A stretch of 36,758 bases of DNA from a virus (Duplodnaviria; Caudoviricetes), in IMG/VR virus record IMGVR_UViG_3300037423_001684, positions 1 through 36,758 of that record. One strand, 5' to 3'. The notes beneath the pieces are model-generated. The model was not told the DNA's origin. It saw only the letters and a program-made list of their open reading frames with translations, and did no database searches. How positions within the stretch are numbered: the first letter of the stretch is position 1; the number at the start of each line of letters is the position of its first letter. Positions 743 through 24,293 of the stretch are shown here, piece after piece. Both the position numbers and the translations under genes were made by a program.

Positions 743-837
743 TGGCAGCACCTCACCAAAACGAACGCGTACACCGCGAGCGCGAACAACACGGCGAGGC
801 CGAACAGGACCCGCCCGATCGACCAGCCGGAGAACAT
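739..837 (-). CDS. 32-aa single-TM peptide (holin/antiholin candidate)
   Basis: MFSGWSIGRVLFGLAVLFALAVYAFVLVRCCQ. TGATG overlap with the upstream protease and ATGA overlap with the endolysin. Confidence 0.6.
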   Translation of the reverse strand: MFSGWSIGRVLFGLAVLFALAVYAFVLVRCCQ

Positions 838-1520
838 CAGGGCAGCGGCACGACGATGTCGCCGCGCTCTCCCAAGATCCGCTCGAGCGTGGTGAACGAC
901 ATGGTGAAGTACCCCTTGTCGCCCCACCCGATGCCCCATGAATTGACGCCGCGGACAACCCTCGCTTCGACGTCGACACCAAGAAGCTCGACCTCGTGAC
1001 CGCCGCGAACCTCGCCGCTGATGAGGAGCTCGGCGTGGTCGCCCACCGGCGAGTCGAAGCCCTCGTACCATGGTGTCCCGAGGATGACGGGGCCGACGAG
1101 CGATAGTGCCGCGAGCGTGCCCTGGAGCGAGAAAGCGTGGTGATAGGCGTGGATCAGGCCCATGCGCGAGGCCGCCTTGGCGACCGCGAGACCCGACGAG
1201 CCGGTGTCCTCGGGCGGGTAGTGGCCGGCGATGTAGTCGAGGCGCGTGGCAGCCGAGTAGATCTGCACGGCCAGTTCCTCATTCACGAGACGCCCCGGCT
1301 GGTAGTGCGGGCCCGTCGCGAGACAGCCCGCCATCGCGTTGCCGGTGCAGCTCCCGAGGTCTTTTTGATCGAACGGCTCCACATGGCGCTCCCAGAAGTG
1401 CGTTCGCACGGGGCTCTTCCGCGTCGTCGCCTCGAAGGCACGCGAGCGCGGGTCGTGCTCCACGTGGCGCCCGAGACGGCCTCGGCCCGGCTTCTCCGGG
1501 ATGACCTCCAGGCGCCTCAC
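837..1520 (-). CDS. Papain-like (C1 family) cysteine peptidase
   Basis: DQKDLGSCTGNA (oxyanion Gln and catalytic Cys), GGHEV (His), NSWG (Asn), WGDKGYF. Start placed at GTG 1520 (GTGA overlap). Confidence 0.88.
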   Translation of the reverse strand: MRRLEVIPEKPGRGRLGRHVEHDPRSRAFEATTRKSPVRTHFWERHVEPFDQKDLGSCTGNAMAGCLATGPHYQPGRLVNEELAVQIYSAATRLDYIAGHYPPEDTGSSGLAVAKAASRMGLIHAYHHAFSLQGTLAALSLVGPVILGTPWYEGFDSPVGDHAELLISGEVRGGHEVELLGVDVEARVVRGVNSWGIGWGDKGYFTMSFTTLERILGERGDIVVPLP

Positions 1521-1837
1521 TTGACGGCCGCCTTGTGCGCCTTGATCGCGATGGCGAGCTCGACATCGGTGGCGCACACGTCGCCGACGATCTTGCACTG
1601 GCCCGACTTGCGCCCGAGCTTTCCCGGCCCGGCGTCCGACCGCTCAGCGCGGACCGTCATCGCGAGGTCGATCAGGTCGTCAGCGGTCGCGCAGATCGCC
1701 TCCTCCTCCGGGCTCTCGGCGAATGCCTGGAGCAGCGTGCACGAGGCTTCCGCGACGGCGCCCACCTGCTTGGAGGTCGGGGGCTTGGCGCAGGCGACGA
1801 GGACGACGAGACCGAGGCCGATAGAACAGGACTTCAT
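1517..1837 (-). CDS. Lipoprotein (o-spanin-like candidate)
   Basis: MKSCSIGLGLVVLVAC lipobox; 106 aa; in the lysis cassette; ATGA overlap with the upstream gene. Confidence 0.7.
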   Translation of the reverse strand: MKSCSIGLGLVVLVACAKPPTSKQVGAVAEASCTLLQAFAESPEEEAICATADDLIDLAMTVRAERSDAGPGKLGRKSGQCKIVGDVCATDVELAIAIKAHKAAVK

Positions 1838-5378: not shown

Positions 5379-7754
5379 TCACAGTGCATCACTCGCCTCC
5401 ATTCGGTCGGTTGGCGACGCGAGAGACTGCGCCGCCTTGCTATTTCCGCTGCCGATCGGTGTCAGCTGCGGACCGCCTGCCTGCGTCGGTGTCGACGGGG
5501 CCCCCTGGGCGAATGCTTGCTGGAACCCTCGGATGGTAGCACCTTGCGTGTACTTCGACACGGGCTGGTTGAACATGATCGCGAGGGCCATCTCCTGCTG
5601 GATCGAGATGTTCGGATCGTTCGCCATCCCATAGTCGCGCATGGCCTTTGCCATCGCCGCAAAGAGCGGCGGATTCACGAACTTGACGGCCTCGATCTGC
5701 TCACGGCTCAGCCGACGATGCGCCAGATCGTCGAGCGTCTTGTCTACGTCGAGCGCCGAGAGTCCCCGCTCCATCTCCGCCTGCGCGCGGGGCCCGATGG
5801 CCCTTGGTACTTTCGGGCCGAACGAAACACCGACGGGAGCCGGCTCGCGCGGCAGCTTCTGCTGCGCCCAGGTCGCCGCCCGCATGACGGACTGCGAGAC
5901 CTGCGCAGCGATATTCGGCGCTGCCTGCTGCATGCCGGTCTGGGCGAGCTGGTTCGCCACATGGTTCGTCAGCACCGCCGAGTTGTTGACCGCCGCTCGA
6001 AGGGCCGCGCGCTGCGCCGGAGAGACCTTCAGGGGCTTGGCGCTCGAGGCCGGCGGCGTTCCCGCGCCATAAAACGCCTTGACCGAGCTCGCGAGCTTCG
6101 TGTCGAAGGCTGCCGCCGCGCGTTGGATGGCTTCGAGCTTCGCGATGCGATTGATCGTAAATGCCGCCGCCTGATTGCCGTAGGTGCGGACGACCTTGTT
6201 GATCGCTGGGAGCGCCAGACTCGCCACTGCGGCAATCGGATGCCCGGCCATGAGCGACGTGGCGGCCGTCGAAAGGCCGCCGGCGCCAGCGATGGTATCC
6301 GTGAGACTGATCGCGCGATTGGCGACCTCCCGAGCGGTCTCCTTGCTGAGGATCCGCTCGGCCGTCTTCAGATCTGCGTAGCGCTGCTTGGCGAAGTCGT
6401 ACTTGGACGAGAACTCGATGCCGAGATCATTCGCAGCGCGCTCGGCCGCCGTCTCGTACTCGCCCTCAAGAATTCGCTCAATCTTCTGCAGGTGCTCAAA
6501 GCCGGCTGGCGGCGACGGTGGCGCGGCCCCCTTCACCGACTTTGGGTAGATGCGATCCGCAAGGTCACGACGGAGCGACTGCAACTCCTCAAAGCTGCCG
6601 AAAGCCTGCTTTCCAGCCGTCCGGCTCTCGATCTCCTGCAAATATGGCTCGATGGCGCGGAGCTCGCCTTGCGCGAAGGCCTTGTTCTGTAGCGGGACGA
6701 CGACCTCGGTCTCGATCCGTTTGAGGATCGGATCGACCTCGGGGCGGATCACCGAGCGATCGAGTTCTTTCCGCAGCGTCCCGATCTCCTCCCCATATTT
6801 CTCGACCTTCTGCGCCACGCGTTCGGCCATGTCCGTCTTGCTCGCGGCAGCAGTGACGATGTCCTCGTCGAGCAATGTTCGGCCGATTCGGTTGATGCCT
6901 GCTTCCTGCTCCGCCGCAGTCTTCCCGAGCTTCTCGACGGCGGCGATCTTCGCCCCGGTTGCCTTGAATGCCTGACCCGCGGCCGCATCTTCGATCTTCT
7001 CGATGGTCGACTTGGCCGCTGTCGACGCTGCTCCACCTTTGCTGGCGACCGTGGCGAGCTTGTCGGCAAGCGCTCCGCCGCCGGCAACAAGCCCCGCGCC
7101 CAGAAGTAGGTTGAGCACGCCGCCCTCGAGACCAGCGGCGAGATACTTCCCAGCAACGAGTTCATGGTCGCCCAGCGTGTCTTCGCTGAGCTGCTGGCCA
7201 AGACCCATCCCGACGCCTTCGGCCAGGAGTGTTGGGGCAGCCTGAACCGCGCGCGCCGCCGCGCGAACGAGTAGTCCATCACCGAGAGATCCTGCGGCCG
7301 TCGCGGGAGGTGCTCCGAAGGCCAGTGGAGCGAGCGAGCCGGCAATTTCGCCAACGGTCGAAGCCGTCGGGTGACCTTCCTTCAGGAGCCGCAGCGTGTG
7401 CCGCATCTCCTCGGCACCCTGGTCGCCTTCGATCAGGCGATCGGCCGCGACCGCGAGCGGATCGAAGGTGCCGAAGGAAAGGCCGCGGCCAACGCCAGCG
7501 AGCCCGGCGGCGACGGTGCCCGCGGTGCCGGTTTTGGCGGTGTAATACTCGGTGTCGGTCGACGGTCGATAGCCGTACTGCCGGACAGCGGTCTCCGCAT
7601 TCTCGATCGGAACGCTCTGGACGGTGCCGTCGGGATCGGTGAGTGCAACGTGGCCAGGATCATCCGTCGGGATGGCCCGATCGGGAATGTCAGGAGCCGG
7701 CGCAGCCTCAGCCGCCGGCGCCCCATCGACGGTGATCGGCGCGATCTCCGCCAT
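5379..7754 (-). CDS. Internal virion/DNA ejection protein (791 aa)
   Basis: Ala/Gly-rich helical protein with hydrophobic stretches (GVLNLLLGAGLVAGGGAL); third of three large genes after the nozzle, as in podoviruses. Confidence 0.7.
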   Translation of the reverse strand: MAEIAPITVDGAPAAEAAPAPDIPDRAIPTDDPGHVALTDPDGTVQSVPIENAETAVRQYGYRPSTDTEYYTAKTGTAGTVAAGLAGVGRGLSFGTFDPLAVAADRLIEGDQGAEEMRHTLRLLKEGHPTASTVGEIAGSLAPLAFGAPPATAAGSLGDGLLVRAAARAVQAAPTLLAEGVGMGLGQQLSEDTLGDHELVAGKYLAAGLEGGVLNLLLGAGLVAGGGALADKLATVASKGGAASTAAKSTIEKIEDAAAGQAFKATGAKIAAVEKLGKTAAEQEAGINRIGRTLLDEDIVTAAASKTDMAERVAQKVEKYGEEIGTLRKELDRSVIRPEVDPILKRIETEVVVPLQNKAFAQGELRAIEPYLQEIESRTAGKQAFGSFEELQSLRRDLADRIYPKSVKGAAPPSPPAGFEHLQKIERILEGEYETAAERAANDLGIEFSSKYDFAKQRYADLKTAERILSKETAREVANRAISLTDTIAGAGGLSTAATSLMAGHPIAAVASLALPAINKVVRTYGNQAAAFTINRIAKLEAIQRAAAAFDTKLASSVKAFYGAGTPPASSAKPLKVSPAQRAALRAAVNNSAVLTNHVANQLAQTGMQQAAPNIAAQVSQSVMRAATWAQQKLPREPAPVGVSFGPKVPRAIGPRAQAEMERGLSALDVDKTLDDLAHRRLSREQIEAVKFVNPPLFAAMAKAMRDYGMANDPNISIQQEMALAIMFNQPVSKYTQGATIRGFQQAFAQGAPSTPTQAGGPQLTPIGSGNSKAAQSLASPTDRMEASDAL

Positions 7755-9592
7755 CAGCGCACCGGCTTGGCTCCGAGCTGGTTGGCGATCATCTGTTGCG
7801 CGAACGGCTTTGGCGCTCCCGTAGCCCCCTGCTGTCGCGCGAGCGCATTGACCGTATTGCGCACGCCCTCCAGCTTCTGCATCGCCATCGCTTCGGTATC
7901 GCTAGGTTCGATCTGGTAGCGGTCTTCGATGACCTTCAGCATGGCTTGCGAGGGCTTGCCGTCGGCGTCCTTAGCCACCTTGCCGACCGCTTGGAGCATC
8001 ATCGTGTTGAGGAAATCGATGTCCTTGGCCGTCTTCGTGGCGTCTGGCGCAAGTCGCTGCCCCAAGTGCGATGCTGCGCCAGTCTCAAGGCCGAGGTCCT
8101 TGAGCGCGGGCAGCTTCTTCATTGCGTCGATCTGCGAGTTGAACTCATCGGAAGCCAACTGCGCTTCTGCGTGCTCCGCGGCGATCTTTCCACGCTGCTC
8201 GCGCGTCATGAGCGGGGCGCCTCCCGTGCCTGCAGGACGATCCGCGACACTGCCAGGGTAGTAGATGACGCCAACCGCGCGACGTGCTTCGGCCTCCGCC
8301 GTCGCCGGGTCGCCGGTCTGTGTAAGGAGTTCCTTGTAGACCTCCTTGTATGTATCCTGCACCTGCTTGGTGCGCGCATAGGCCTGGTTCGCCGCCGCGA
8401 TAGCCTGCTGCTGCTTCTTCAGACCGATCTGTTCCTGCAGCATCGCTTGCTGCTGGCCCACCTGCGCAATCGCATCATCTGCTCGAGCGCGCGCGGCGGG
8501 CGTCCCATCGCGATCGGCCTCGGCGTTGATCTCGTTCTTCGCCGCCTCGTAGGAGAGGTTTCGAAGCTGCATCTTTGCAAGCTGGTCGTCCTTCTGTGCT
8601 GCGCGCTGCTGCTGCAGCATGTTCATCCCCTGGCCGATCGCGAACTTCTGGTCTTGGATCTGCCGTTCCTGCTCGGCGATCCCTCGGTCGATGTGCCGAT
8701 TGAGATCGTCGATGAACTGGTTGGACTTGCCGCCGCTGATTCCCTGGTAGAAGCCGCCCACCGCTCCGCCGACAACGGCGAGAATGCCGAGCGCGGGCTG
8801 CTCCTTGAAATCCTTCAGTGGGTCGACCTTGCGCGTCTTGACGTCATCCAGCTGCCGTCCCAACTCCGCCATCTGCTCGTCGAAGTGCTGAGAGGCGTAG
8901 TCCTGCTCGGCGCGCGCGATCGCGGCGTCCTCCTCCTGCATGCGGCCGAGGTTCGCCATGTTGTCGGCGAGCTTCACGGCGCGTGTCTCGTCGGCAGCGG
9001 CCGCGCGATCCATCGCATGCATGCGCGTGTCGAAGGCACCCAACTGCGCCTTTTGAGCGGCGAGGATGCCGTATGGATCGGGGTTTGCCGGCGCACCAGC
9101 ACCGCTCGGCTTCGGCTTCGGCGCCTCAAGCTTCGCATTGAGCTTGGCCAGCGCCGCATCGTCAGCCGCAGTGGGGCCGATCCCGGCGAGATTCACATCT
9201 TTCTTCGGTGCTGGTCCAGCTGGCGGCGGGGACGGCGCAAGACCACCCGCGAGCTTCGGCGGCTCTGCCAGTGACACGGTCGGAGCGCCCGCGATCGATG
9301 CGCCGCTGGATCCGGGCTGGATGAAGTCGTTGTAGACGCGCTCCTGAGGCGGAGCGATTCCCATCTTCGCAGCACCCGCCGCAAACGGGTCGGCTGGAGA
9401 TGGTGCGGCCGCCTCGGCCGGCGTCGGCGCGGGGGCGATCCCTGCAGCGGCAGCGCCGGCGGCAAATGGATCCGTCGGCACGGCGGCGTCCGCACCCCAA
9501 TACTGGTTGATCGCGGCGTCGTCGGCGGGCGCGGGCCCAGGGTCGACGCCCCAGTAGGACGCGTTCGGATCAGGGTTCGGCGGAAGAGCCAT
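7754..9592 (-). CDS. Internal virion/DNA ejection protein (612 aa)
   Basis: Pro/Ala-rich N-terminus, Gln-rich coiled coils, one hydrophobic segment (ALGILAVVGGAVGGFY); position in the ejection cluster. Confidence 0.7.
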   Translation of the reverse strand: MALPPNPDPNASYWGVDPGPAPADDAAINQYWGADAAVPTDPFAAGAAAAGIAPAPTPAEAAAPSPADPFAAGAAKMGIAPPQERVYNDFIQPGSSGASIAGAPTVSLAEPPKLAGGLAPSPPPAGPAPKKDVNLAGIGPTAADDAALAKLNAKLEAPKPKPSGAGAPANPDPYGILAAQKAQLGAFDTRMHAMDRAAAADETRAVKLADNMANLGRMQEEDAAIARAEQDYASQHFDEQMAELGRQLDDVKTRKVDPLKDFKEQPALGILAVVGGAVGGFYQGISGGKSNQFIDDLNRHIDRGIAEQERQIQDQKFAIGQGMNMLQQQRAAQKDDQLAKMQLRNLSYEAAKNEINAEADRDGTPAARARADDAIAQVGQQQAMLQEQIGLKKQQQAIAAANQAYARTKQVQDTYKEVYKELLTQTGDPATAEAEARRAVGVIYYPGSVADRPAGTGGAPLMTREQRGKIAAEHAEAQLASDEFNSQIDAMKKLPALKDLGLETGAASHLGQRLAPDATKTAKDIDFLNTMMLQAVGKVAKDADGKPSQAMLKVIEDRYQIEPSDTEAMAMQKLEGVRNTVNALARQQGATGAPKPFAQQMIANQLGAKPVR

Positions 9593-12158
9593 CGCGACGC
9601 GCCTTCTTCGCGCGCACAGCGCGAGGCACGTCGTCTTCGAGGCGGTCTACCTGGTCTTGGAGGCTGGCCAACGAACCCATCACTACCTTGAGGCCCTTGT
9701 CCTTGTCGATGGCGAGGAGCCCGGTCTCAGGATCGCGCACGATCGCCGTTCGCGCCACCGGATCATGCGCCATTCGGTCGGCCATCGGCCCCACATTCAC
9801 CTCACCAGGAGCCTGACCAGGCGGTCGGAGCCCAGGCTTGTAGGCGTAGGGGCTCGCCTCCATCGAGCGCATCGCACCGGCCATGGCCTGATCGGACATG
9901 TCCCCGAACTGCTTCGAATCGCGATCGGCAACGGCCGGCCCCTGCTTCAGCGACGCCTGCATGCTGGCCATGAGGTCGTCGGCCTGCTTCCCAACGTTGT
10001 CGAGGTAGGCCTTTCTCACCTGCGCTTGCTTCGCGGGCGTGTCGCGCCTGAAGGTCTGCGGGTCACGCAGGCGGCTAGGCTCCTTGTTCGCCTCGTAGTC
10101 GAACGGGACCGGATCCTTTGCGTCCTCCGAGCTCGTGGAGGTATCGCGCTTCCTTGCTGGCGGCGCCGACATGCGCGACAGGGTCTGGTCCGGCGTCAGG
10201 AACGCTCGCGCCATCGAGTCGGCGTCACGGCCATGGAGAATGTCCAGCGCGCGCGGCGACGTCGTCTCGGCGGTACGTGGGGCGGTCTTTTCCTCAGCCT
10301 CGATCACGAACGGCCGCGATTCGCCAGCCGGCAGCCGCGCAGACGTGATCTCGAGCGCCTTGGCCCCCGAGGTCTCCGCCTTTCGCGGCTGTCGGGCTCC
10401 AATGCGGGCACGCTCGGCGTCATCGCGCGCTCGCGCGGTCTCGAGCGCATCGAGCCCGGCGGTAGCGCCCAGGCCAGCGTCAATCGCACCGATCGGAGCG
10501 GATGCGAGCCCGAGAGGCAGATACTTCAGCGCCGCTGCCGCGTTCTCGTTGCGGCTGCTCTTCGCGTCATCGGCCACTTGCTTACTCGCTGCGACGGCCC
10601 CCGTGCGGACGCCGGCCTGGAAGGCCTCTTCCTTCGCGGCAGGGTCGCTCGTGATCGTGTCGCGCTCGGCGACCTGGGCCGGTCGAGGGGTTGCCCAATC
10701 GCGCAAGCCGCCGAGGCCGCCGCCGAGGATCTTCGCCCAGCCAGACTGGCCCTTCTCCGTTGGCCTGGTTGCCCCGCCGCGCTTCCAGTCCGGATCGCCA
10801 TCCGTCTTGGCGGACTCGCCGTAGCGCTTCCAGTCGTTGGTGCCTGGTGCTCCGCTCTCGTCCTTCGACAGGCCGGGGATGGACGCGTCCGCCTCCGGCG
10901 ACTCGCCGAACATCGAGCCCGGTTTACCCGCGCGGGAGGCTGCGTAGCCACGCGGAGCGCCCGCGACGCCTCGCGCCCCTTCCTCGCTGCGATCGTAGGG
11001 GCTGGCGTCACGCGTATCGTCCTCGATCGCCTTCGTCAGCGCCGAGCTGTCGCCGCTGCGCGGGTCGGCGTTCAGGTTGGCGTAGCCCCCGCGCTTGCGA
11101 CGCGCGGCCACGTCCTTCTCGGCGTCACCAGAGACATACCCGCGATGCAGGAGAGACGTCTTCTCCCTTGGATCGCTCGGCATGACGGCCATGCCGTGCG
11201 CCTTCACCGCACCCCCAGTGAAGCCGGTGCCGCCGACCGAGCCGGGCATCGTGGCGCTTCCGAGCCCCGTGGAGGCTGCGTTGACCGAGCTACCGGTCAT
11301 GCCGCCGCTGTCCCCGACGTCGGTGGTTCCTCCGAGGCCGAGCGAAGCAAGCGAGCCCATGACGGGCATCTTGCTCTGCGGATCAGAGAAGACAGACAGT
11401 GCGCCTTGCACTACGCCGCCGGCCGCGCCTGTGGCGGCCTTGAAGAGGTCGAAGTCTCTGTCGGCGTTGTGCTGCTGCGTATTGACGTTCAGCTGGTTGG
11501 CGTTGTTCTGCGATTGCGCGCCGATCTGCTGCTGCGTAAGGCCCGCCTGCAGCTGGTCTTCTGCCACCCTGTTCTGCAGGTTCTCGTACTGCTCCGCGCG
11601 CTGGTCGTTCAGCGCCGTCTGCTGCTGGTTGATTCGCGCCTGATCTGTCGCCAGGCCGATGTCCTGGCCGCGCGCCGCCGTCGATGCCTGCGCAAGCTGG
11701 CCGCGGGCGTTTGCGATCTCGTTCGCGCGCTGCGCCTGAATCCCCTGGTTCATGTCGGCGCGCTGGGTCATCGCGTTCTGGCTCGCCGACCGGTAGGCCG
11801 CGGCCTGTGCGCCTGGTCCTCCGCGCACCGTCCCCGCTGCCGCTACCTGCGAGTTCAGCGCGCGATCGCTCATCTGCTGACCAAGCGTCTCGGCGGCGGA
11901 CGGTCCCTTGCCGGCAGCAGCGTCTTGGAGCGACGCCAGCGAGCCCATCTGGATGCCGCGCGTCTGGTTTTGTGCGGTCTGGTCGATCTGCGGGCCAGTG
12001 CGATTCTCGGCCTGCTGCTGTCGGTAAGCGAGGTTCGCGCGCTCGTCCGCAGCGCCGCCTGCATAGCCGCCATACTGGTACTTGCTCTCGTCGTATCCGC
12101 GTGCGGTGTCCCCGATCCACCCGCCGGCTCGTGCGCTGTTGTTTCCTACGAAGGGCAT
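9570..12158 (-). CDS. Internal virion/ejection protein with C-terminal peptidase S74-like (intramolecular chaperone) domain
   Basis: Gln/Ala-rich N-terminal ~255 aa. The C-terminal PYAYK...VGPMADRM...AIVRD...GLLAIDKDK...LASLQDQVDRLE fits the S74 body pattern (YxYK, GxMAQ, VDY, coiled coil). Several SDPxxK motifs upstream. Confidence 0.7.
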   Translation of the reverse strand: MPFVGNNSARAGGWIGDTARGYDESKYQYGGYAGGAADERANLAYRQQQAENRTGPQIDQTAQNQTRGIQMGSLASLQDAAAGKGPSAAETLGQQMSDRALNSQVAAAGTVRGGPGAQAAAYRSASQNAMTQRADMNQGIQAQRANEIANARGQLAQASTAARGQDIGLATDQARINQQQTALNDQRAEQYENLQNRVAEDQLQAGLTQQQIGAQSQNNANQLNVNTQQHNADRDFDLFKAATGAAGGVVQGALSVFSDPQSKMPVMGSLASLGLGGTTDVGDSGGMTGSSVNAASTGLGSATMPGSVGGTGFTGGAVKAHGMAVMPSDPREKTSLLHRGYVSGDAEKDVAARRKRGGYANLNADPRSGDSSALTKAIEDDTRDASPYDRSEEGARGVAGAPRGYAASRAGKPGSMFGESPEADASIPGLSKDESGAPGTNDWKRYGESAKTDGDPDWKRGGATRPTEKGQSGWAKILGGGLGGLRDWATPRPAQVAERDTITSDPAAKEEAFQAGVRTGAVAASKQVADDAKSSRNENAAAALKYLPLGLASAPIGAIDAGLGATAGLDALETARARDDAERARIGARQPRKAETSGAKALEITSARLPAGESRPFVIEAEEKTAPRTAETTSPRALDILHGRDADSMARAFLTPDQTLSRMSAPPARKRDTSTSSEDAKDPVPFDYEANKEPSRLRDPQTFRRDTPAKQAQVRKAYLDNVGKQADDLMASMQASLKQGPAVADRDSKQFGDMSDQAMAGAMRSMEASPYAYKPGLRPPGQAPGEVNVGPMADRMAHDPVARTAIVRDPETGLLAIDKDKGLKVVMGSLASLQDQVDRLEDDVPRAVRAKKARRDGSSAEP

Positions 12159-12161
12159 CGG

Positions 12162-15100
12162 TCAACCTCGTCTGCTGGGTGTAATGCGCGGGAGCCCGCT
12201 CTTTGGCGAAACGAGAAGGGCGACGCCGTCCAGTGTGAAGCCGCCACCGTTCCCGAGAGGGTAAGCATTCGCATTCGCTGGCGCCGCGTCGGAGATCTGG
12301 ATCTCCACGGCCTGTACCTTCTGCACGGACAGATCGATCTGCGCGCGCTCGAGCGGCCCCACCGTCGTCGTGTCGCTGCCGGCAGCGAAGGTCCTTGTCT
12401 GCTGCGTCGACTCCGAGAAGTCGCGGCGGATGAGGATGGTCAGTTGATGGTTCGAGAGGCTCGTCCCGAGCAGCTGCGCGCGCCGCACGCGGTGCCAGGA
12501 GACCGGTCCGGCCGGCGAGATGGGGGAGAGGCGGACCGTTGATGGGACGAAGGCCCCGCTGTCGAGGTGATCGGCGGTCTGCTCAGCGTAGACCGTGCTC
12601 GCGGTGGCGAAGTAGTAGGTGGTCCCGAGGAGGCAGGCGTCCACGATGGCCGCGCCGCCGGGATAGGCGCGCGTCATCCACGTCTTTCGCTCGTAGTCGA
12701 AGACCAGGATGAGGCCGGCGCTGCCGTCGGCTTTGTTGCAGGTGAACCGCACCTCGTTTTCCGACGAGACGAGGACGGCGCTCGTGATCTTCGGGTAGGT
12801 CGCGAGCGTGTCTTGGACGTCGCGGCCGATCCAGCCCACCGTCAGGCCCCGATCCAGCAGGTAGATCGCGCCGTCATGCTCGAAGAGGACGCCGAGGGGC
12901 ATGGAGACGACGCTTCGCGGGTTCGTGCAGCCGATGTCCGATTGGATGACCTGAGGCACCTGGAAGCGATTGTCCGTCCCAGCGACCGTGGGACCGTCGC
13001 CGACGACGAACCAGATCCGCGGCTTCGCGAACATGATCCGCTTCTCGTCCATCGTCGTCGCGGCAACGAGGTCCTCTTCGTAGACTTCCACCTGCGCCGA
13101 GTTGAAGCCTGGTGCGATGCCGGGATTCTCGTTCGCGTCCTTCGAGAACCAGTATTCGCGGCGGTTGCCGGTGATGATGCCGATGCGCCGCCCGTGGACG
13201 TGCACAGTGTACTGGCCGGGCGGCTGGACGTCCTCGAGCTCGCTCGTGGCCGTGTATGGCTCGGGGCGCGTGTTGAGCGGGATCGGCGGCTTCTCGGGCG
13301 AGTCCGCGTCGATGGCGACTCCGTTGATCGCATTGTCCGGCCGCTTGTCGGTGAACGTGATCAAGTAGTCGTCCGGATGGTTCGGGACGACGTTGTACCG
13401 CGGCTCGTAGGTCAGCTTGTGAAGGGCAGAGCCACCCGCCTCGGTGCGGTAGGCGTCGAAATAGGACGCGCCCACGCCCTCGATCGAGAATTCGGTGGCC
13501 AGCGTCTGCTTGCAGTCGATGCTGTTCGGCATCAGCACGATCTTCGCGCTGCCATTCGCGTTCGAGCCGGAGGAAACGTGTACGGTGGTCTCGACCGACA
13601 TCGGGCCACGGTGCAGAACACCGACCGAGCTCCGGTAACCAGGCTCGAACTGGTAGATGTAGTTGCCGTTCGGCATCTCGCCATCAAGCGTGGCCTCATA
13701 GACGAGGACGAACGGCTGACGCATGCCGTAATCGAAGAGCGTGCGGCCGTCCCACGCGCCAAGGCGACCACCGGCGATGTACGTCTCGGGCCCGATGCTG
13801 ACCGAGCGCCACGGATCGTCAATGAGGTCGGGGTCGACCGTCACGCGCGCGCAGCGGAGGCCGGCGCGCAGGTTGAAGGAGATCGGAGAGGCGTTCCCCT
13901 GGAACGGCGTCAGCCCAAGAATCGTGTTGCCGTCGACGATGGCGACCTGCGGAAGCAAGCCCATGCGCCACGGCGCGGCAATGTCGTGGTCGATCTTGCC
14001 GACGAACCGGTGGGGTGGCGCGATGAAGGGGATTTTCTCTTCGTCGACCTCGTAGGGCTCGACTGAGAGTTCGATCACGTAGCTGGATAGGCTCGGCGTC
14101 TTGGAATCCTCGGCCCTCGCCTGTTCGGTGCGCTCGTTGTCCTCCTCGGTGCGCTCGCCGTACCGCGCATCGGCCGCGAGCGCGTAGTATTTCGCGCCGA
14201 GCTTGAAGATCCGCGAGAGGAGGACCATCGCTGCCGACATTCGGCGCACGGAAGTCGTTCCGAGGCCCGCTTCTGCGCCCGTGTTGTCGAGGATCGTCGA
14301 TTGCAGCGACGGGAAGCCCACCTCCGCGGTGACGCCCGTGTCCGTTTGGTCGGTTCCGGACCATGCGCAGAGCAGCGAGGTCGTACCGAGTGGGTAGATC
14401 GCGACCTGGCGCGCGACGTAGTTCGTCCCCGCGTCCGGGTGCGCGACCACCGTGACCGGTGCAAGTGCGCTCGCCATCGTCGAGCTGTTGATCGCCCGGT
14501 ACCGGATGCGATGCTCGACCGTCACCGCCGTTCCGCCGTCGTCGCTCTCCTGGCAGTAAAGGATGTAGATCCTGCTCGAGCCCGTCACCTCGCAGATGCT
14601 GATCGACTTGACCGACGAATCGGTGAGAGTGACGGCTGCGGCCGACGTGAAGGTCGCAAGCGAGCGCGTGAAGCGGGCCGCGCGCAGGCTGGTGCCATGC
14701 TTTTCGTAGACGACGACCAGATCGCCGTCCGCCTTGAAGATGGCGTCGAAGCGCCCGCGCAGGGTGGAATTGGACTGCAGGTCGGTGATGAGCGCCTGCG
14801 TCCCGAGCACGTCGAATTCGCCACTCAGGCGCAGGGTCAGCTGCGAGATGTGCTGCTCGTCGAATGAGAACAGGACGAACGCGAGGCCGCCGGCGATGAG
14901 CACGCGCACGTGGTAGATGCGATCGCCCAGGCCGGTGACAGGCAGCTTGACCGGGCGGCGCACGAGCTCGCGCGTCCGCCAGTTGAAGACCTGCACCCAG
15001 CCGAGGCCCTGCGACGCGGGCGGCGAGTCCTCCGGGCGCAACGTCGGGTCACCCGTAACCCAGGCGTGCACGAGCATGTCGCCGCTGATCGCCACATCGC

Positions 15101-15479
15101 TCGTAGCGACGCCGACGTAATCGTCGAGCAGCGTGTACCACTCGAGGCCGATCTCCGAGCCGTTCGGAAGGCCGTGGCCGAGCCCGTCGCCGCGCCAGAT
15201 CTGGGTGACCGGATCGTACGTGAAGAGCCCCTGGCCGTCGGTGACCGAGAGCTCGGATCCGCGCGTCACGAAGCGGCGGAGGTTCGCCAGAATGCCGTCT
15301 TGGTCGACGTCCACCGTCGTCGGGAGCGCCGTCGTGCCCCAGCGCTTGCCGATCTGACCGTCCTTTGGCCAGCGGATGTTCGCGCCCGACCGGAGCGCGC
15401 TCATCGGCTGCGCCTTCGGGTTCGAGTCCTCGGCCAAGCCGAGGCGGAGCGGAAACTGGATGACCTGCCCGCTCATCAA
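12162..15479 (-). CDS. Tail nozzle/head-closure protein (P22 gp10/T7 gp12-like, 1105 aa)
   Basis: Large beta-propeller-like protein with IGCTNPRSVV and GKRWG motifs typical of podoviral nozzles; follows the adaptor. Confidence 0.7.
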   Translation of the reverse strand: MMSGQVIQFPLRLGLAEDSNPKAQPMSALRSGANIRWPKDGQIGKRWGTTALPTTVDVDQDGILANLRRFVTRGSELSVTDGQGLFTYDPVTQIWRGDGLGHGLPNGSEIGLEWYTLLDDYVGVATSDVAISGDMLVHAWVTGDPTLRPEDSPPASQGLGWVQVFNWRTRELVRRPVKLPVTGLGDRIYHVRVLIAGGLAFVLFSFDEQHISQLTLRLSGEFDVLGTQALITDLQSNSTLRGRFDAIFKADGDLVVVYEKHGTSLRAARFTRSLATFTSAAAVTLTDSSVKSISICEVTGSSRIYILYCQESDDGGTAVTVEHRIRYRAINSSTMASALAPVTVVAHPDAGTNYVARQVAIYPLGTTSLLCAWSGTDQTDTGVTAEVGFPSLQSTILDNTGAEAGLGTTSVRRMSAAMVLLSRIFKLGAKYYALAADARYGERTEEDNERTEQARAEDSKTPSLSSYVIELSVEPYEVDEEKIPFIAPPHRFVGKIDHDIAAPWRMGLLPQVAIVDGNTILGLTPFQGNASPISFNLRAGLRCARVTVDPDLIDDPWRSVSIGPETYIAGGRLGAWDGRTLFDYGMRQPFVLVYEATLDGEMPNGNYIYQFEPGYRSSVGVLHRGPMSVETTVHVSSGSNANGSAKIVLMPNSIDCKQTLATEFSIEGVGASYFDAYRTEAGGSALHKLTYEPRYNVVPNHPDDYLITFTDKRPDNAINGVAIDADSPEKPPIPLNTRPEPYTATSELEDVQPPGQYTVHVHGRRIGIITGNRREYWFSKDANENPGIAPGFNSAQVEVYEEDLVAATTMDEKRIMFAKPRIWFVVGDGPTVAGTDNRFQVPQVIQSDIGCTNPRSVVSMPLGVLFEHDGAIYLLDRGLTVGWIGRDVQDTLATYPKITSAVLVSSENEVRFTCNKADGSAGLILVFDYERKTWMTRAYPGGAAIVDACLLGTTYYFATASTVYAEQTADHLDSGAFVPSTVRLSPISPAGPVSWHRVRRAQLLGTSLSNHQLTILIRRDFSESTQQTRTFAAGSDTTTVGPLERAQIDLSVQKVQAVEIQISDAAPANANAYPLGNGGGFTLDGVALLVSPKSGLPRITPSRRG

Positions 15480-22126: not shown

Positions 22127-22424
22127 GCGACGCTCCCTGCTTCGCGCTCACGGCGCGAGGAACGTCACTCTGAGCAGAGCCCGGAAGCTTCAACGGCGGC
22201 TTGACCGTCGAATGGGCGAACTGGATCTCGTGCTGGCGCATCAGCCGTGCGGCGACGCCCTTCAGCGGGTCGGGCTTGGCCTCGGTGGCGGCCGTCTTGG
22301 TCACGGGCGGGGGTCCGAGCACGAGCTTGATGAGCACCATGCCAGCTGGATCCCATTCGGCATGCACGGCGTTGGTCGCGCGCATGAATGCCGCTTGCTC
22401 TTCCCAGGTCTTGCGCTCAGTCAT
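22089..22424 (-). CDS. Hypothetical protein (111 aa)
   Basis: Tiles in the operon; GAGG RBS. Confidence 0.6.
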   Translation of the reverse strand: MTERKTWEEQAAFMRATNAVHAEWDPAGMVLIKLVLGPPPVTKTAATEAKPDPLKGVAARLMRQHEIQFAHSTVKPPLKLPGSAQSDVPRAVSAKQGASRGSKAKVSKRAS

Positions 22425-22851
22425 CGCTCACCTCGTCGGCCAGCGGCTCGTCGTCCTCGTCGTCGATGACCTGGATGTCCTTTCGAGCAGCCTGCTTCTC
22501 GGCGGCGAGCTTCCGTAGCCGCTCGGCGCGCTCCTTCATGCGCCCGGTGCGCGACAGCTTCTGCGAGATCAGCGCGCCGACCTGCATCGCGCTCGTGACG
22601 TTCTCGAGGGGGAACTCGACGCCGCCCGGATCGACTCGGAAGTGCGGGAACGGCTCCTTCAGGAAGGTCACGGTCTGCGTGTCGGTCGCCTCGATGAGCT
22701 TCGAGCTGTGCGAGAAGCGGAGCTTGTGCCCGATCTCTTTGATGCGGACCGACGCGTAGGCAACGCCGCCCTCGATGCCAACCGCCGCCTGGGCGGATGC
22801 CACCATGCTGTCGGGAATCGCTCCGGTTGCGGTCTTCTTACGAGCGGCCAT
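22417..22851 (-). CDS. Hypothetical protein (144 aa)
   Basis: Tiles in the operon; basic/acidic C-terminus. Confidence 0.65.
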   Translation of the reverse strand: MAARKKTATGAIPDSMVASAQAAVGIEGGVAYASVRIKEIGHKLRFSHSSKLIEATDTQTVTFLKEPFPHFRVDPGGVEFPLENVTSAMQVGALISQKLSRTGRMKERAERLRKLAAEKQAARKDIQVIDDEDDEPLADEVSDD

Positions 22852-23242
22852 CGATTGTGAACCTCGGCTTGTAGGCCCAGCCCTTTGGCAGGCGGGCCGT
22901 GGTGGACAAGAACGTGACCGCGTTGACCTTCAAGTCGGCGAGCAGTTTGCGAGCAATGCCCATCTTGCGAAAGTCCTGCTTCACGTAGACGTAGTGCAGC
23001 TCGGCGCCGTCGTCGGTCGTCGTGAACGCGGCGAACCCGAGCAGGTGATCGTCGTCATCCGGCGCGGTCGCGATGCGGATTTGCGCGCGGTCGCAGAGCC
23101 GACGGATCGCGAGGGTCATCTCACGGCGGTAGTGCTCGCGATCGCAGCCGCGCACCGCTGGCGCCCCCTCGAAGGAGCGCTTCCAGGCATCGATGACGAA
23201 GGCCATATCGCCCTCTCGAGCGGAGCGGATGGGGAAGGTCAC
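22838..23242 (-). CDS. GNAT-family N-acetyltransferase
   Basis: IRSAREGD, LLGFAAF, and LHYVYVKQDFRKMGIARKLL (acetyl-CoA motif A, RxxGxA). Confidence 0.82.
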   Translation of the reverse strand: MTFPIRSAREGDMAFVIDAWKRSFEGAPAVRGCDREHYRREMTLAIRRLCDRAQIRIATAPDDDDHLLGFAAFTTTDDGAELHYVYVKQDFRKMGIARKLLADLKVNAVTFLSTTARLPKGWAYKPRFTIDGRS

Positions 23243-23499
23243 TTCTTCCCGAACTCCGGACGTTGGATGTAAACGACCGCCCCGCCGTTCAGACGAGCCC
23301 GATCGACCCCTAGGCGCTTGTGCTTCTCCGCTTCCGCAGGCTGCACAGTGGCCTGGTCTTCGGCCATCGTGTCCTGGCCCTCAAAGAGCATTCGGGAGCC
23401 GCATTCGGCGCAATGCTTCACATAGTTTTTGCCAGTCGGGTTGTCGACGACCTCGACTTTGCCCGTTGCGTAAACGAGTACGCCCTTGAATGGGATCAT
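23239..23499 (-). CDS. Small CxxC protein (86 aa)
   Basis: MIPFKGVLVYATG...HCAECGSR; ATGA/GTGA overlaps with neighbours. Confidence 0.6.
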   Translation of the reverse strand: MIPFKGVLVYATGKVEVVDNPTGKNYVKHCAECGSRMLFEGQDTMAEDQATVQPAEAEKHKRLGVDRARLNGGAVVYIQRPEFGKK

Positions 23500-24293
23500 G
23501 CTCTCACCTCGCCAATCTTCCAGGCCCGCACGCAGTGCCCCGCGTGCCCGGTCTTGCCCCAGTGCCGGAACTCCGGCGGGTAGTAGATGCAGACCTCGTA
23601 GCCGTCTTGCCGCGCGAGCGTGCAGAAGCGCCAGTCCTCGGACGCGTAGCGCTTGCGCCCGCGCTCGTTCGTCTCGAGCGCCACGTCGAACAGCGCCCAC
23701 ATGGGATGGCCTCGGTAGGCCTCCATGTCCGCCTCGTAGAGCAGTTCGGGGTGCTTCCGCTGCATGTCGATGAAGACGTCGCGGTGCACCATCAGGAAGC
23801 CGGTCCCGACCTCGCTGACGGGGATCGTGTTGTCCGGCCGGATGTCGACCGACTGCGCCGCGATGTTCGCCGGCAGCAGGTTGGCCACCACTCCGCCCGA
23901 GCCATCTCGGTAGGGGTAGGCTCCGCCGATGATGGGACGGCCGCTCTCGACCATGTGCCGGACGGCGGTGACGTCGAGACACTCAATGTCTGCGTCCCAC
24001 TGCAGTAGGTGCGTGGCGCTCGAGCAGAGGAAGATGTGCTGCAGGACGTGTCGCCCGCGCGTGACGAGACTATCGCCGCCGGTGAGGAAGTGCGTCGCGT
24101 CGATGCCGTGCGCGCGCAGGTCCTCGACGGTGCGCGCCACCGAGTCCAGGTAGCCGAGTTCGGGCGCCTGGTAGGCCGGCGTGGCGATCAGCACGTGCGG
24201 CTTCTCGCTCACGGGCTCGCCGCCGCGCTGGAGCTGGTAGGCCGCCTCGAGCGTGGTCAGGTCGCCGGCGAAGATGTCGTCCCAATGGCTCAC
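23496..24293 (-). CDS. GT-A fold glycosyltransferase-like protein
   Basis: VLIATPAY, DSLVTRGR, LLQWDADI (DxD), GTGFLMVHRDVF, SEDWRFC and HWG motifs. Confidence 0.82.
   Translation of the reverse strand: MSHWDDIFAGDLTTLEAAYQLQRGGEPVSEKPHVLIATPAYQAPELGYLDSVARTVEDLRAHGIDATHFLTGGDSLVTRGRHVLQHIFLCSSATHLLQWDADIECLDVTAVRHMVESGRPIIGGAYPYRDGSGGVVANLLPANIAAQSVDIRPDNTIPVSEVGTGFLMVHRDVFIDMQRKHPELLYEADMEAYRGHPMWALFDVALETNERGRKRYASEDWRFCTLARQDGYEVCIYYPPEFRHWGKTGHAGHCVRAWKIGEVRA

What the first reader, a model, noticed from the sequence alone, without database searches (positions are those of the whole stretch)
9570..11387. Ejection protein with one S74-like autoprotease body but several dispersed SDPxxK cleavage motifs: candidate self-processing polyprotein
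Seen: the 862-aa ORF has SDPQSK (aa 258, nt 11370-11387), SDPREK (aa 328, 11160-11177) and SDPAAK (aa 504, 10632-10649), plus degenerate SGDAEK (aa 343) and SSEDAK (aa 676). Low-complexity segments separate them, and an S74-like body sits only at aa ~766-845. Established: S74 intramolecular chaperones begin with a single S-D-x-x-x-K motif that is both the scissile site and the Ser-Lys dyad, normally a few tens of residues before the YxYK/GxMAQ core. Here the nearest SD (MSDQAM) lacks the Lys. Inference: one chaperone body may engage several upstream S..K strands in turn, cutting the protein into a ~258-aa ejection pilot and several cargo peptides. That would be a split, multi-site S74 system that could deliver peptides with the DNA.
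Basis: partly seen in the sequence, partly recalled or inferred. Interest (0 to 1): 0.78.

Follow-up and report, generated by a model that had tools for sequence, protein, structure and literature searches.

The report
Split, multi-site self-cutting phage ejection protein
A soil phage protein that is likely injected with the viral DNA carries one body of a known self-cutting domain but three to four copies of its cutting motif, a pattern kept in about 150 relatives, so the domain likely acts as a reusable cutter of several sites, and even of a sister protein, instead of cutting itself once.

Summary
Observation confirmed. The 862-aa ORF (9570-12158, minus strand) sits at the first ejection-protein position of a podovirus-type temperate phage; its relatives occur in Myxococcota. 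Its C-terminal ~90 aa fold as an S74/ICA body: the four best of 48,161 PDB representatives are MyRF, endoNF, T5 fibre and 3GUD chaperones. The body lacks the Ser-Lys head. Heads lie upstream: SDxxxK at aa 258, 328 and 504, and a probable variant at 676. In the family, 148 of 157 proteins carry two or more heads, and upstream heads number 408 against 16.5 expected. Ser and Lys are almost never replaced by Thr or Arg. Site 258 is the ancestral head, split from its body by a ~490-aa insert. Separately, sister genes with no S74 body keep a 20-28-aa head stub (43 of 53 proteins; 7 of 7 loci). The best reading is that a trimeric body cuts heads supplied from far away or from another protein, with turnover (about 0.6). 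Cleavage itself is not shown. Delivery of the fragments as cargo is untested, SGDAEK is not a conserved site, and MSDQAM is a helix cap. I found no such system in nine literature searches.

The parts
9570..12158 (-). 862-aa gene: ejection-type N-domain, multi-head insert and headless S74 body
   Evidence: one run's contig spans it unchanged
11388..12158 (-). aa 1-257: long-helix N-domain (predicted 27 kDa product), ending in a Gly/Ala-rich hydrophobic stretch; likely gp7/gp14-class ejection protein
   Evidence: AF2 helices aa 24-243, pLDDT mostly 77-97; Atlas leads P22_gp7 0.91 and T7_gp14 0.90; single-site homologue hits phrog_4287 DNA ejection protein, E 2e-5; hydropathy
11334..11387 (-). 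Head 1 (S258/K263) with the ancestral head tail PVMGSL; the ancestral S74 head
   Evidence: S258, D259, K263 at least 90% invariant in 150 aligned proteins; 17 of 17 close proteins; same tail as the bodiless stubs
11160..11177 (-). Head 2 (S328/K333)
   Evidence: SDxxxK in the same column in 10 of 17 close proteins, S-x-x-x-x-K variants in 3 more
10719..10988 (-). aa 391-480: most conserved insert module (GVAGAPRGYAAS..., then two Trp-containing blocks); candidate functional fragment
   Evidence: aa 391-420 matched in 70 of 163 homologues, aa 436-480 in 20-29
10599..10649 (-). Head 3 (S504/K509) with following helix
   Evidence: 17 of 17 close proteins; D505 at least 90% invariant in alignment A2
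10116..10133 (-). Probable head 4, Asp-to-Ser variant (S676/K681)
   Evidence: canonical SDxxxK at the same place in 10 of 14 other TFxRDT-bearing proteins
9909..10088 (-). aa 691-750: helical TFxRDT module found in a minority of relatives
   Evidence: 14-22 of 163 homologues; helix 708-738
9624..9896 (-). aa 755-845: S74/ICA body without its own head; invariant Y771/Y773 likely match MyRF Y615/Y617
   Evidence: MyRF residues from PMC8326128 section 7
12162..15479 (-). Upstream 1105-aa gene, likely tail nozzle; no SDxxxK
   Evidence: position and strand-rich sequence (inference); syntenic genes of L017 and L018 hit phrog_511
7754..9592 (-). Likely second ejection protein (612 aa); no SDxxxK
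   Evidence: conserved synteny
5379..7754 (-). Likely third ejection protein (791 aa); no SDxxxK
   Evidence: conserved synteny

Best explanation
This is a likely podovirus ejection protein whose S74 autoprotease is split into one headless body and several distant Ser-Lys heads, and the body, predicted to trimerise, likely clamps and cuts these heads one after another, releasing a ~257-aa ejection protein and 6-20 kDa pieces. Shown: S74 fold of the body (model), absence of an adjacent head, and repeated heads under selection for Ser and Lys at exact spacing. From the literature: in MyRF the scissile strand of one subunit threads a ring of the neighbouring subunit, so the active site is already built between chains. 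Inferred: each head supplies its own nucleophile and base, the body supplies the ring and the two tyrosines, and heads exchange, by threading from a free C-terminus through disordered linkers or by ring opening. In related phages the same body would trim a 20-28-aa stub off a sister ejection protein in trans. The first cut likely exposes the hydrophobic C-terminal helix of the ejection protein. The fate of the pieces is open; the conserved 328-503 piece is the best cargo candidate.
For: Body matches MyRF 598-702 (Z 6.3, rmsd 3.1, 92 aligned), endoNF 921-1063 (Z 6.2), T5 fibre chaperone (Z 5.8) and 3GUD (Z 5.1), the top four of 48,161, each match starting about 10 residues after the catalytic Ser where that residue is known; Foldseek ranks MyRF first, prob 1.00, TM 0.68, E 0.018. 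536 heads against 25 expected in 161 proteins. Upstream only: 408 against 16.5, while SD..K 23, SD....K 35, SD...R 27 vs 21, TD...K 15 vs 12 and SE...K 10 vs 14 stay near background. Ser in 179 of 182 and Lys in 179 of 184 conditioned contexts, with no Thr or Arg. Heads use both Ser codon families, 45 AGY and 36 TCN. 51 headless bodies keep YxY[KR] in 50 cases, with the nearest head 61-406 aa from the core against about 45 normally. Bodiless paralogues keep a stub in 7 of 7 loci and 43 of 53 proteins, have their own stop with no read-through frame in two of the three junctions read, and fall in two clades. Inter-subunit threading and S587/K592/Y615/Y617 roles: PMC8326128 sections 5 and 7.
Against: No cleavage, virion or expression data exist. 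The MyRF ring is about 9 A wide with the strand threaded through it, which makes exchange of an internal head topologically demanding. 45 of 357 head-to-head spacings are 15 aa or less, so some copies are redundant duplicates. The conditioned counts are partly circular, since contexts are defined by the motif. Z scores of 5-6 are modest alone, and the window protein has no direct Pfam hit. The ejection role rests on synteny, a homologue's PHROG hit at E 2e-5 and Atlas leads carried by 16-17% of cluster members. Ten of 53 bodiless proteins lack the stub, so it is dispensable in some lineages.
Confidence: 0.6

Rival explanations
1. Single turnover with a choice of site: each body folds around whichever head it traps and cuts once, giving a ladder of N-terminal products with tails of different length.
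For: Known S74s are single-turnover, and the head is threaded through a ring. It explains selection on each dyad without exchange. Stubs could be cut inside mixed complexes.
Against: Head 1 and the N-domain boundary are the most conserved features, yet head 1 is the farthest from the body and would rarely win. Bodies with a normal adjacent head (101 of 157) still keep upstream heads. A stub on another protein competes with the body's own heads.
Confidence: 0.17
2. Only head 1 (and the stub) is cut; the other heads are binding handles that hold the insert or partner proteins on the body trimer during assembly or packaging.
For: Later heads have a different downstream context (a short helix, not the VxP[ML]GSL tail). 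Variants such as SPGEAK and SAMxxK exist.
Against: Handles should tolerate Ser-to-Thr or Lys-to-Arg, which are essentially absent; the variants lose Asp and keep Ser and Lys.
Confidence: 0.12
3. The heads are cut without this body: by self-cleavage of the bare motif, or by another phage or host protease that reads SDxxxK.
For: The window encodes a papain-like peptidase at 837-1598 (phrog_16701). The motif survives on proteins with no body.
Against: The body stays conserved in headless proteins. All 7 stub genes with context lie directly upstream of a body gene. The window's other virion ORFs carry no SDxxxK. MyRF cutting at its site needs Y615/Y617 and trimerisation.
Confidence: 0.05
4. Extra heads are neutral leftovers of repeated local duplication in a fast-evolving low-complexity insert.
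For: Close doublets and triplets occur (45 spacings of 15 aa or less); copy number varies from 1 to 6.
Against: Flanks diverge while S, D and K stay fixed; both Ser codon families are used; no DNA repeat family joins the window's three heads among the 20 of 24 families shown.
Confidence: 0.06

Closest known systems
Peptidase S74 / CIMCD / ICA domain (PF13884): K1F endoNF (3GW6), T5 L-shaped fibre (4UW8), 3GUD, Bdellovibrio MAT Bd3182
   Same: Fold of the body; SDxxxK Ser-Lys head (PMC10769870 passages); C-terminal position and terminal coiled-coil helix.
   Different: Head separated from body by up to ~490 aa; several heads per chain; heads on a bodiless sister protein; upstream client is helical and not a triple beta-helix or fibre.
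MyRF ICA domain (7DC3)
   Same: Best structural match; compact body without long tentacles; YxY pair; cleavage reported as independent of the upstream stalk, with the strand supplied by the neighbouring subunit (PMC8326128).
   Different: One head per chain, contiguous with the body; eukaryotic transcription factor.
Single-site S74-bearing phage ejection-type proteins (phrog_4287 'DNA ejection protein'; Atlas clusters of 350-390 aa with PF13884)
   Same: N-domain + head + body; the compact homologue L018 gene B matches both ends of the window protein. Likely the ancestral form.
   Different: No insert, one head.
P22 gp7 / T7 gp14 / epsilon15 gp11 first ejection proteins
   Same: Gene position after the nozzle; 196-240 aa (PMC8954989 Table 1) against 257 aa for the predicted product; Atlas leads.
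   Different: No S74 is mentioned for them in the passages read; no direct HMM hit for the window protein.
Multi-site processing of head-internal proteins by a prohead protease (phiKZ; T4 recalled)
   Same: Internal virion proteins cut at several sites.
   Different: There a separate protease carries the catalytic residues; here each substrate site would carry them. phiKZ paper seen only as a reference title.

Membership tests
Peptidase S74 / ICA | ICA fold (helix 1, strand pair, short helices, hairpin, C-terminal coiled-coil helix) | tested here: met
   top four of 48,161 are the S74 structures, Z 5.1-6.3
Peptidase S74 / ICA | PF13884 score above the curated cut-off | tested here: inconclusive
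   no hit for the window protein, whose head is missing from the modelled span; 17 of 99 family members scanned pass the cut-off
Peptidase S74 / ICA | Ser and Lys at i, i+5 (SDxxxK) | tested here: met
   three canonical copies and one variant
Peptidase S74 / ICA | A single head contiguous with the body | tested here: not met
   nearest canonical head 286 aa before the core, variant 114 aa; about 45 in 97 of 157 relatives
Peptidase S74 / ICA | Aromatic YxY pair at the cutting ring | tested here: met
   Y771, Y773 invariant in 150 proteins; correspondence to MyRF Y615/Y617 inferred from motif and structural range
Peptidase S74 / ICA | Upstream triple beta-helix client | tested here: not met
   N-domain modelled as long helices, insert largely under pLDDT 50
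Peptidase S74 / ICA | Trimerisation and autocleavage before the Ser | not testable with these tools
   needs expression and mass spectrometry
gp7/gp14-class ejection proteins | First of three genes after the nozzle in a podovirus virion module | tested here: met
   portal, capsid and terminase hits in the window; same order in the loci listed
gp7/gp14-class ejection proteins | Sequence or profile homology to a characterised member | tested here: inconclusive
   only via a homologue (phrog_4287, E 2e-5) and Atlas leads; no tblastn match among 50,697 phage records
gp7/gp14-class ejection proteins | Packaged in the head and ejected into the host envelope | not testable with these tools
   needs virion proteomics or cryo-EM

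The most novel reading that the evidence does not exclude
An S74 autoprotease has become a reusable, trans-acting cutter in which each substrate carries the catalytic Ser-Lys dyad in a six-residue tag. It turns an ejection protein into a polyprotein of swappable peptides that are packaged and delivered into myxobacterial hosts, and it matures sister proteins through a 20-aa stub.
Probability: 0.3. Interest if true: 0.92.

Novelty: new variant of a known kind. Interest (0 to 1): 0.8.

Why it matters
In the papers I read, S74/ICA domains cut once, at a head joined to their own body. A natural split form with many heads and trans stubs would show that the fold can turn over and that the substrate can bring the catalytic residues. 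It gives direct tests of how the threaded strand is loaded, which also bears on human MYRF. It suggests how short-tailed phages can mature ejection proteins without a separate prohead protease, and it could yield a minimal tag-plus-90-aa cleavage tool. A cultured, non-pathogenic strain (Labilithrix luteola DSM 27648) carries the stub/body gene pair, so the test is within reach.

Tried and rejected
Complex prediction of the body (aa 750-848, three copies) with the head-3 peptide (aa 494-527, three copies) gave no verdict: 0.83 against a control at 0.69; not used. Pfam, PHROGs and NCBIfam gave no hit for the window protein. PDB sequence-profile searches found nothing useful, apart from MyRF at E 0.64. 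Whole-protein fold searches were filled by generic long helices and did not show which head docks. tblastn in the phage collection found no match. A first genome scan with the single body found nothing. No RNA holder was listed; laid contigs gave one substitution, too little for a selection test. SGDAEK was rejected as a site and MSDQAM as a decayed head. A DNA-repeat origin of the window's heads was not seen. Read-through fusion of stub and body genes: frames differ in L017 and L018; L012 is in frame but has a stop followed by a purine-rich site and ATG. No Pfam cargo domain in 99 proteins scanned. The body tree was the quick version with 76 of 149 forks open: 16 changes of the headless state, only 2 forced, 5 rows dropped for bad anchors or fragments. 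Literature searches returned no paper; others listed none on multi-site or trans S74 by title or abstract start.

Full report
Context. The window is a 36,758-base virus record with terminase, portal, major head protein, tail spike, serine integrase and primase hits. The gene lies on the minus strand between a 1105-aa gene and two genes of 612 and 791 aa. The same order, with a ~1000-1100-aa gene before and two long genes after, recurs in the loci listed. I read it as nozzle followed by three ejection proteins (inference from P22/T7 gene order; sizes in PMC8954989 Table 1). Named relatives lie in Labilithrix luteola DSM 27648, a Polyangiaceae MAG, a Myxococcales MAG and one contig binned as Bdellovibrionota (4 loci). 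The window's own host is not shown. Runs holding the gene are soil or rhizosphere DNA.

Observation. Searches returned 33 and 818 relatives; I analysed the 164 retrieved. 161 have the body and carry 536 SDxxxK against 25 expected. Of 157 with a located core, 148 have two or more heads after residue 150 and 126 have three or more. Leaving out the normal adjacent heads, there are 408 against 16.5, and controls with shifted spacing or with Arg, Thr or Glu stay near background. Given D.R[ATSM]K, position 0 is Ser in 179 of 182; given SD.R[ATSM], position +5 is Lys in 179 of 184; where the motif degenerates it is the Asp that goes (28 of 169). These counts are partly circular, but they show no drift to Thr or Arg. 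Ser codons split 45 AGY to 36 TCN over 35 distinct ORFs, pointing to selection on the protein. Among the 17 closest proteins, heads 258 and 504 are kept in all, head 328 in 10 (variants in 3 more), and SGDAEK is not kept. SSEDAK matches a canonical head in 10 of 14 comparable proteins.

The body. The model of aa 751-848 has pLDDT 90. Foldseek ranks MyRF ICA first. The wide search puts MyRF, endoNF, T5 and 3GUD in the first four of 48,161, at Z 6.3-5.1, with the next row at 4.7 over only 50 residues. The match starts at MyRF 598 and endoNF 921, whose dyads are S587/K592 and S911/K916 (PMC8326128 section 7). So what is missing is just the head. Y771 and Y773 are invariant.

How it arose. Compact homologues (L018 gene B, P0063, P0107) run N-domain, head, body without a gap. 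L018 gene B hits phrog_4287 'DNA ejection protein' over aa 64-352, resembles S74-bearing viral clusters and matches both ends of the window protein. First heads keep the ancestral tail ([VI] at +8, P at +10), adjacent heads mostly do not. The insert therefore lies inside the S74 domain, between head and helix 1, and later heads were added within it (inference). 101 of 157 have a head next to the body and 56 do not; after dropping 5 doubtful rows, 50 of 51 headless bodies keep YxY[KR]. The headless state is scattered on a weakly resolved tree (16 changes, 2 forced).

Heads without a body. In 7 distinct loci among about 28 (some too short to show the upstream gene) a paralogue with the N-domain and no body lies directly upstream of a body gene, and all 7 end in a head stub. 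In the three junctions read, it has its own stop and the next gene its own start. A search with one such gene gave 55 new proteins; 53 have no body and 43 of these end 20-28 aa after SDxRxK-type heads with the tail x[NH][VI]xP[ML]GSL; 10 lack it. These 53 have no genomic context. Bodiless genes fall in two clades, forced by supported branches. An earlier AI note (e1-3442746) describes this pairing in another genome; I saw it, after finding it, and do not count it as support. The window itself has no such paralogue.

Mechanism. In MyRF the strand bearing the cut site comes from the neighbouring subunit and threads a ring about 9 A wide; cutting needs S587, K592, the two tyrosines and the trimer, but not the upstream stalk (PMC8326128 sections 5, 7, 8). 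That geometry lets head and body be uncoupled. A short stub with a free end can thread directly. After any cut, the upstream piece has a new free C-terminus, and the linkers are predicted disordered (333 residues under pLDDT 50), so successive heads could be drawn through; ring opening is the alternative. All of this is inferred. The 45 residues before head 1 are more hydrophobic than those before later heads (median best 19-mer 0.63 against 0.18; window 1.13), so the first cut likely unmasks a membrane-seeking helix. Predicted pieces are 257, 70, 176, 172 and 187 aa. Only the 328-503 piece holds a widely shared module (70 of 163); aa 526-660 matched no homologue. No Pfam cargo domain was found in 99 proteins. 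Delivery of pieces is therefore open.

Against. There are no cleavage data; the threaded ring is a real obstacle to turnover; 45 of 357 spacings are too short to hold cargo; 10 of 53 bodiless proteins do without the stub; the ejection role is indirect.

Prior art. Nine searches showed no paper on repeated or trans S74 heads, or on S74 in ejection proteins; the library lacks most subscription papers. Seen: PMC8326128 passages and sections 5-8; passages of PMC10769870, PMC8954989, PMC10386132, PMC7824862 and PMC3909814. Schwarzer 2007 and Schulz 2010 were seen only as references. No supplements were read. The canonical S74 tail pattern, the labels 'nozzle' and 'tape-measure-like', and T4 processing are recalled, not from a call.

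Verdict. A real, family-wide feature. It works like an S74 and has its fold and dyad, but fails the contiguous single-head feature, so I file it as a new split variant. Multi-site cutting with turnover 0.6; interest 0.8.

Noticed in passing
window 9603-9632 and 22137-22166 (minus strand): A 30-nt stretch, 26 of 30 identical, ends both this gene and the 111-aa ORF before the portal, giving a shared DVPRAVxAK tail; it is kept in 13 close relatives among P0002-P0033. It could be a shared C-terminal signal or a translation element before the next gene.
   Followed up: partly
L004/L049, L014/L015, L006, gene after the body gene: Second ejection genes hold 5 SDxxxK in 23 ORFs against 2.15 expected, and all five have Ala at +4 (about three independent cases): possible further trans sites. 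None in the window.
   Followed up: partly
window 9654-9681, 11340-11360, 11922-11949: MGSLASL occurs three times in the protein (N-domain, after head 1, terminal helix), with DNA 79-90% alike. Unexplained.
   Followed up: no
P0031, P0118; P0016, P0120, P0137, L017:10798-12501: Mobile insert modules: a VGExGxEL block (recalled as tape-measure-like) and a PDT[FY]KKPNHxTFS block, suggesting exchange of cargo-like segments.
   Followed up: no
P0010, P0043, P0049, P0083, P0092, P0097 (residues 4-30): SDxxxK near the N-terminus: 8 seen against 1.5 expected in residues 1-150, two of them in truncated proteins; possible N-terminal trimming.
   Followed up: no
window 837-1598, 22838-23242, 23496-24293 (minus strand): Papain-like peptidase (phrog_16701), GNAT acetyltransferase, and a phrog_1574 protein of unknown function in the virion region.
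   Followed up: no
L033 (NZ_CP012333.1, 3746006-3763658): Labilithrix luteola DSM 27648 carries a related virion module with the stub/body gene pair; whether the prophage is intact was not checked.
   Followed up: partly
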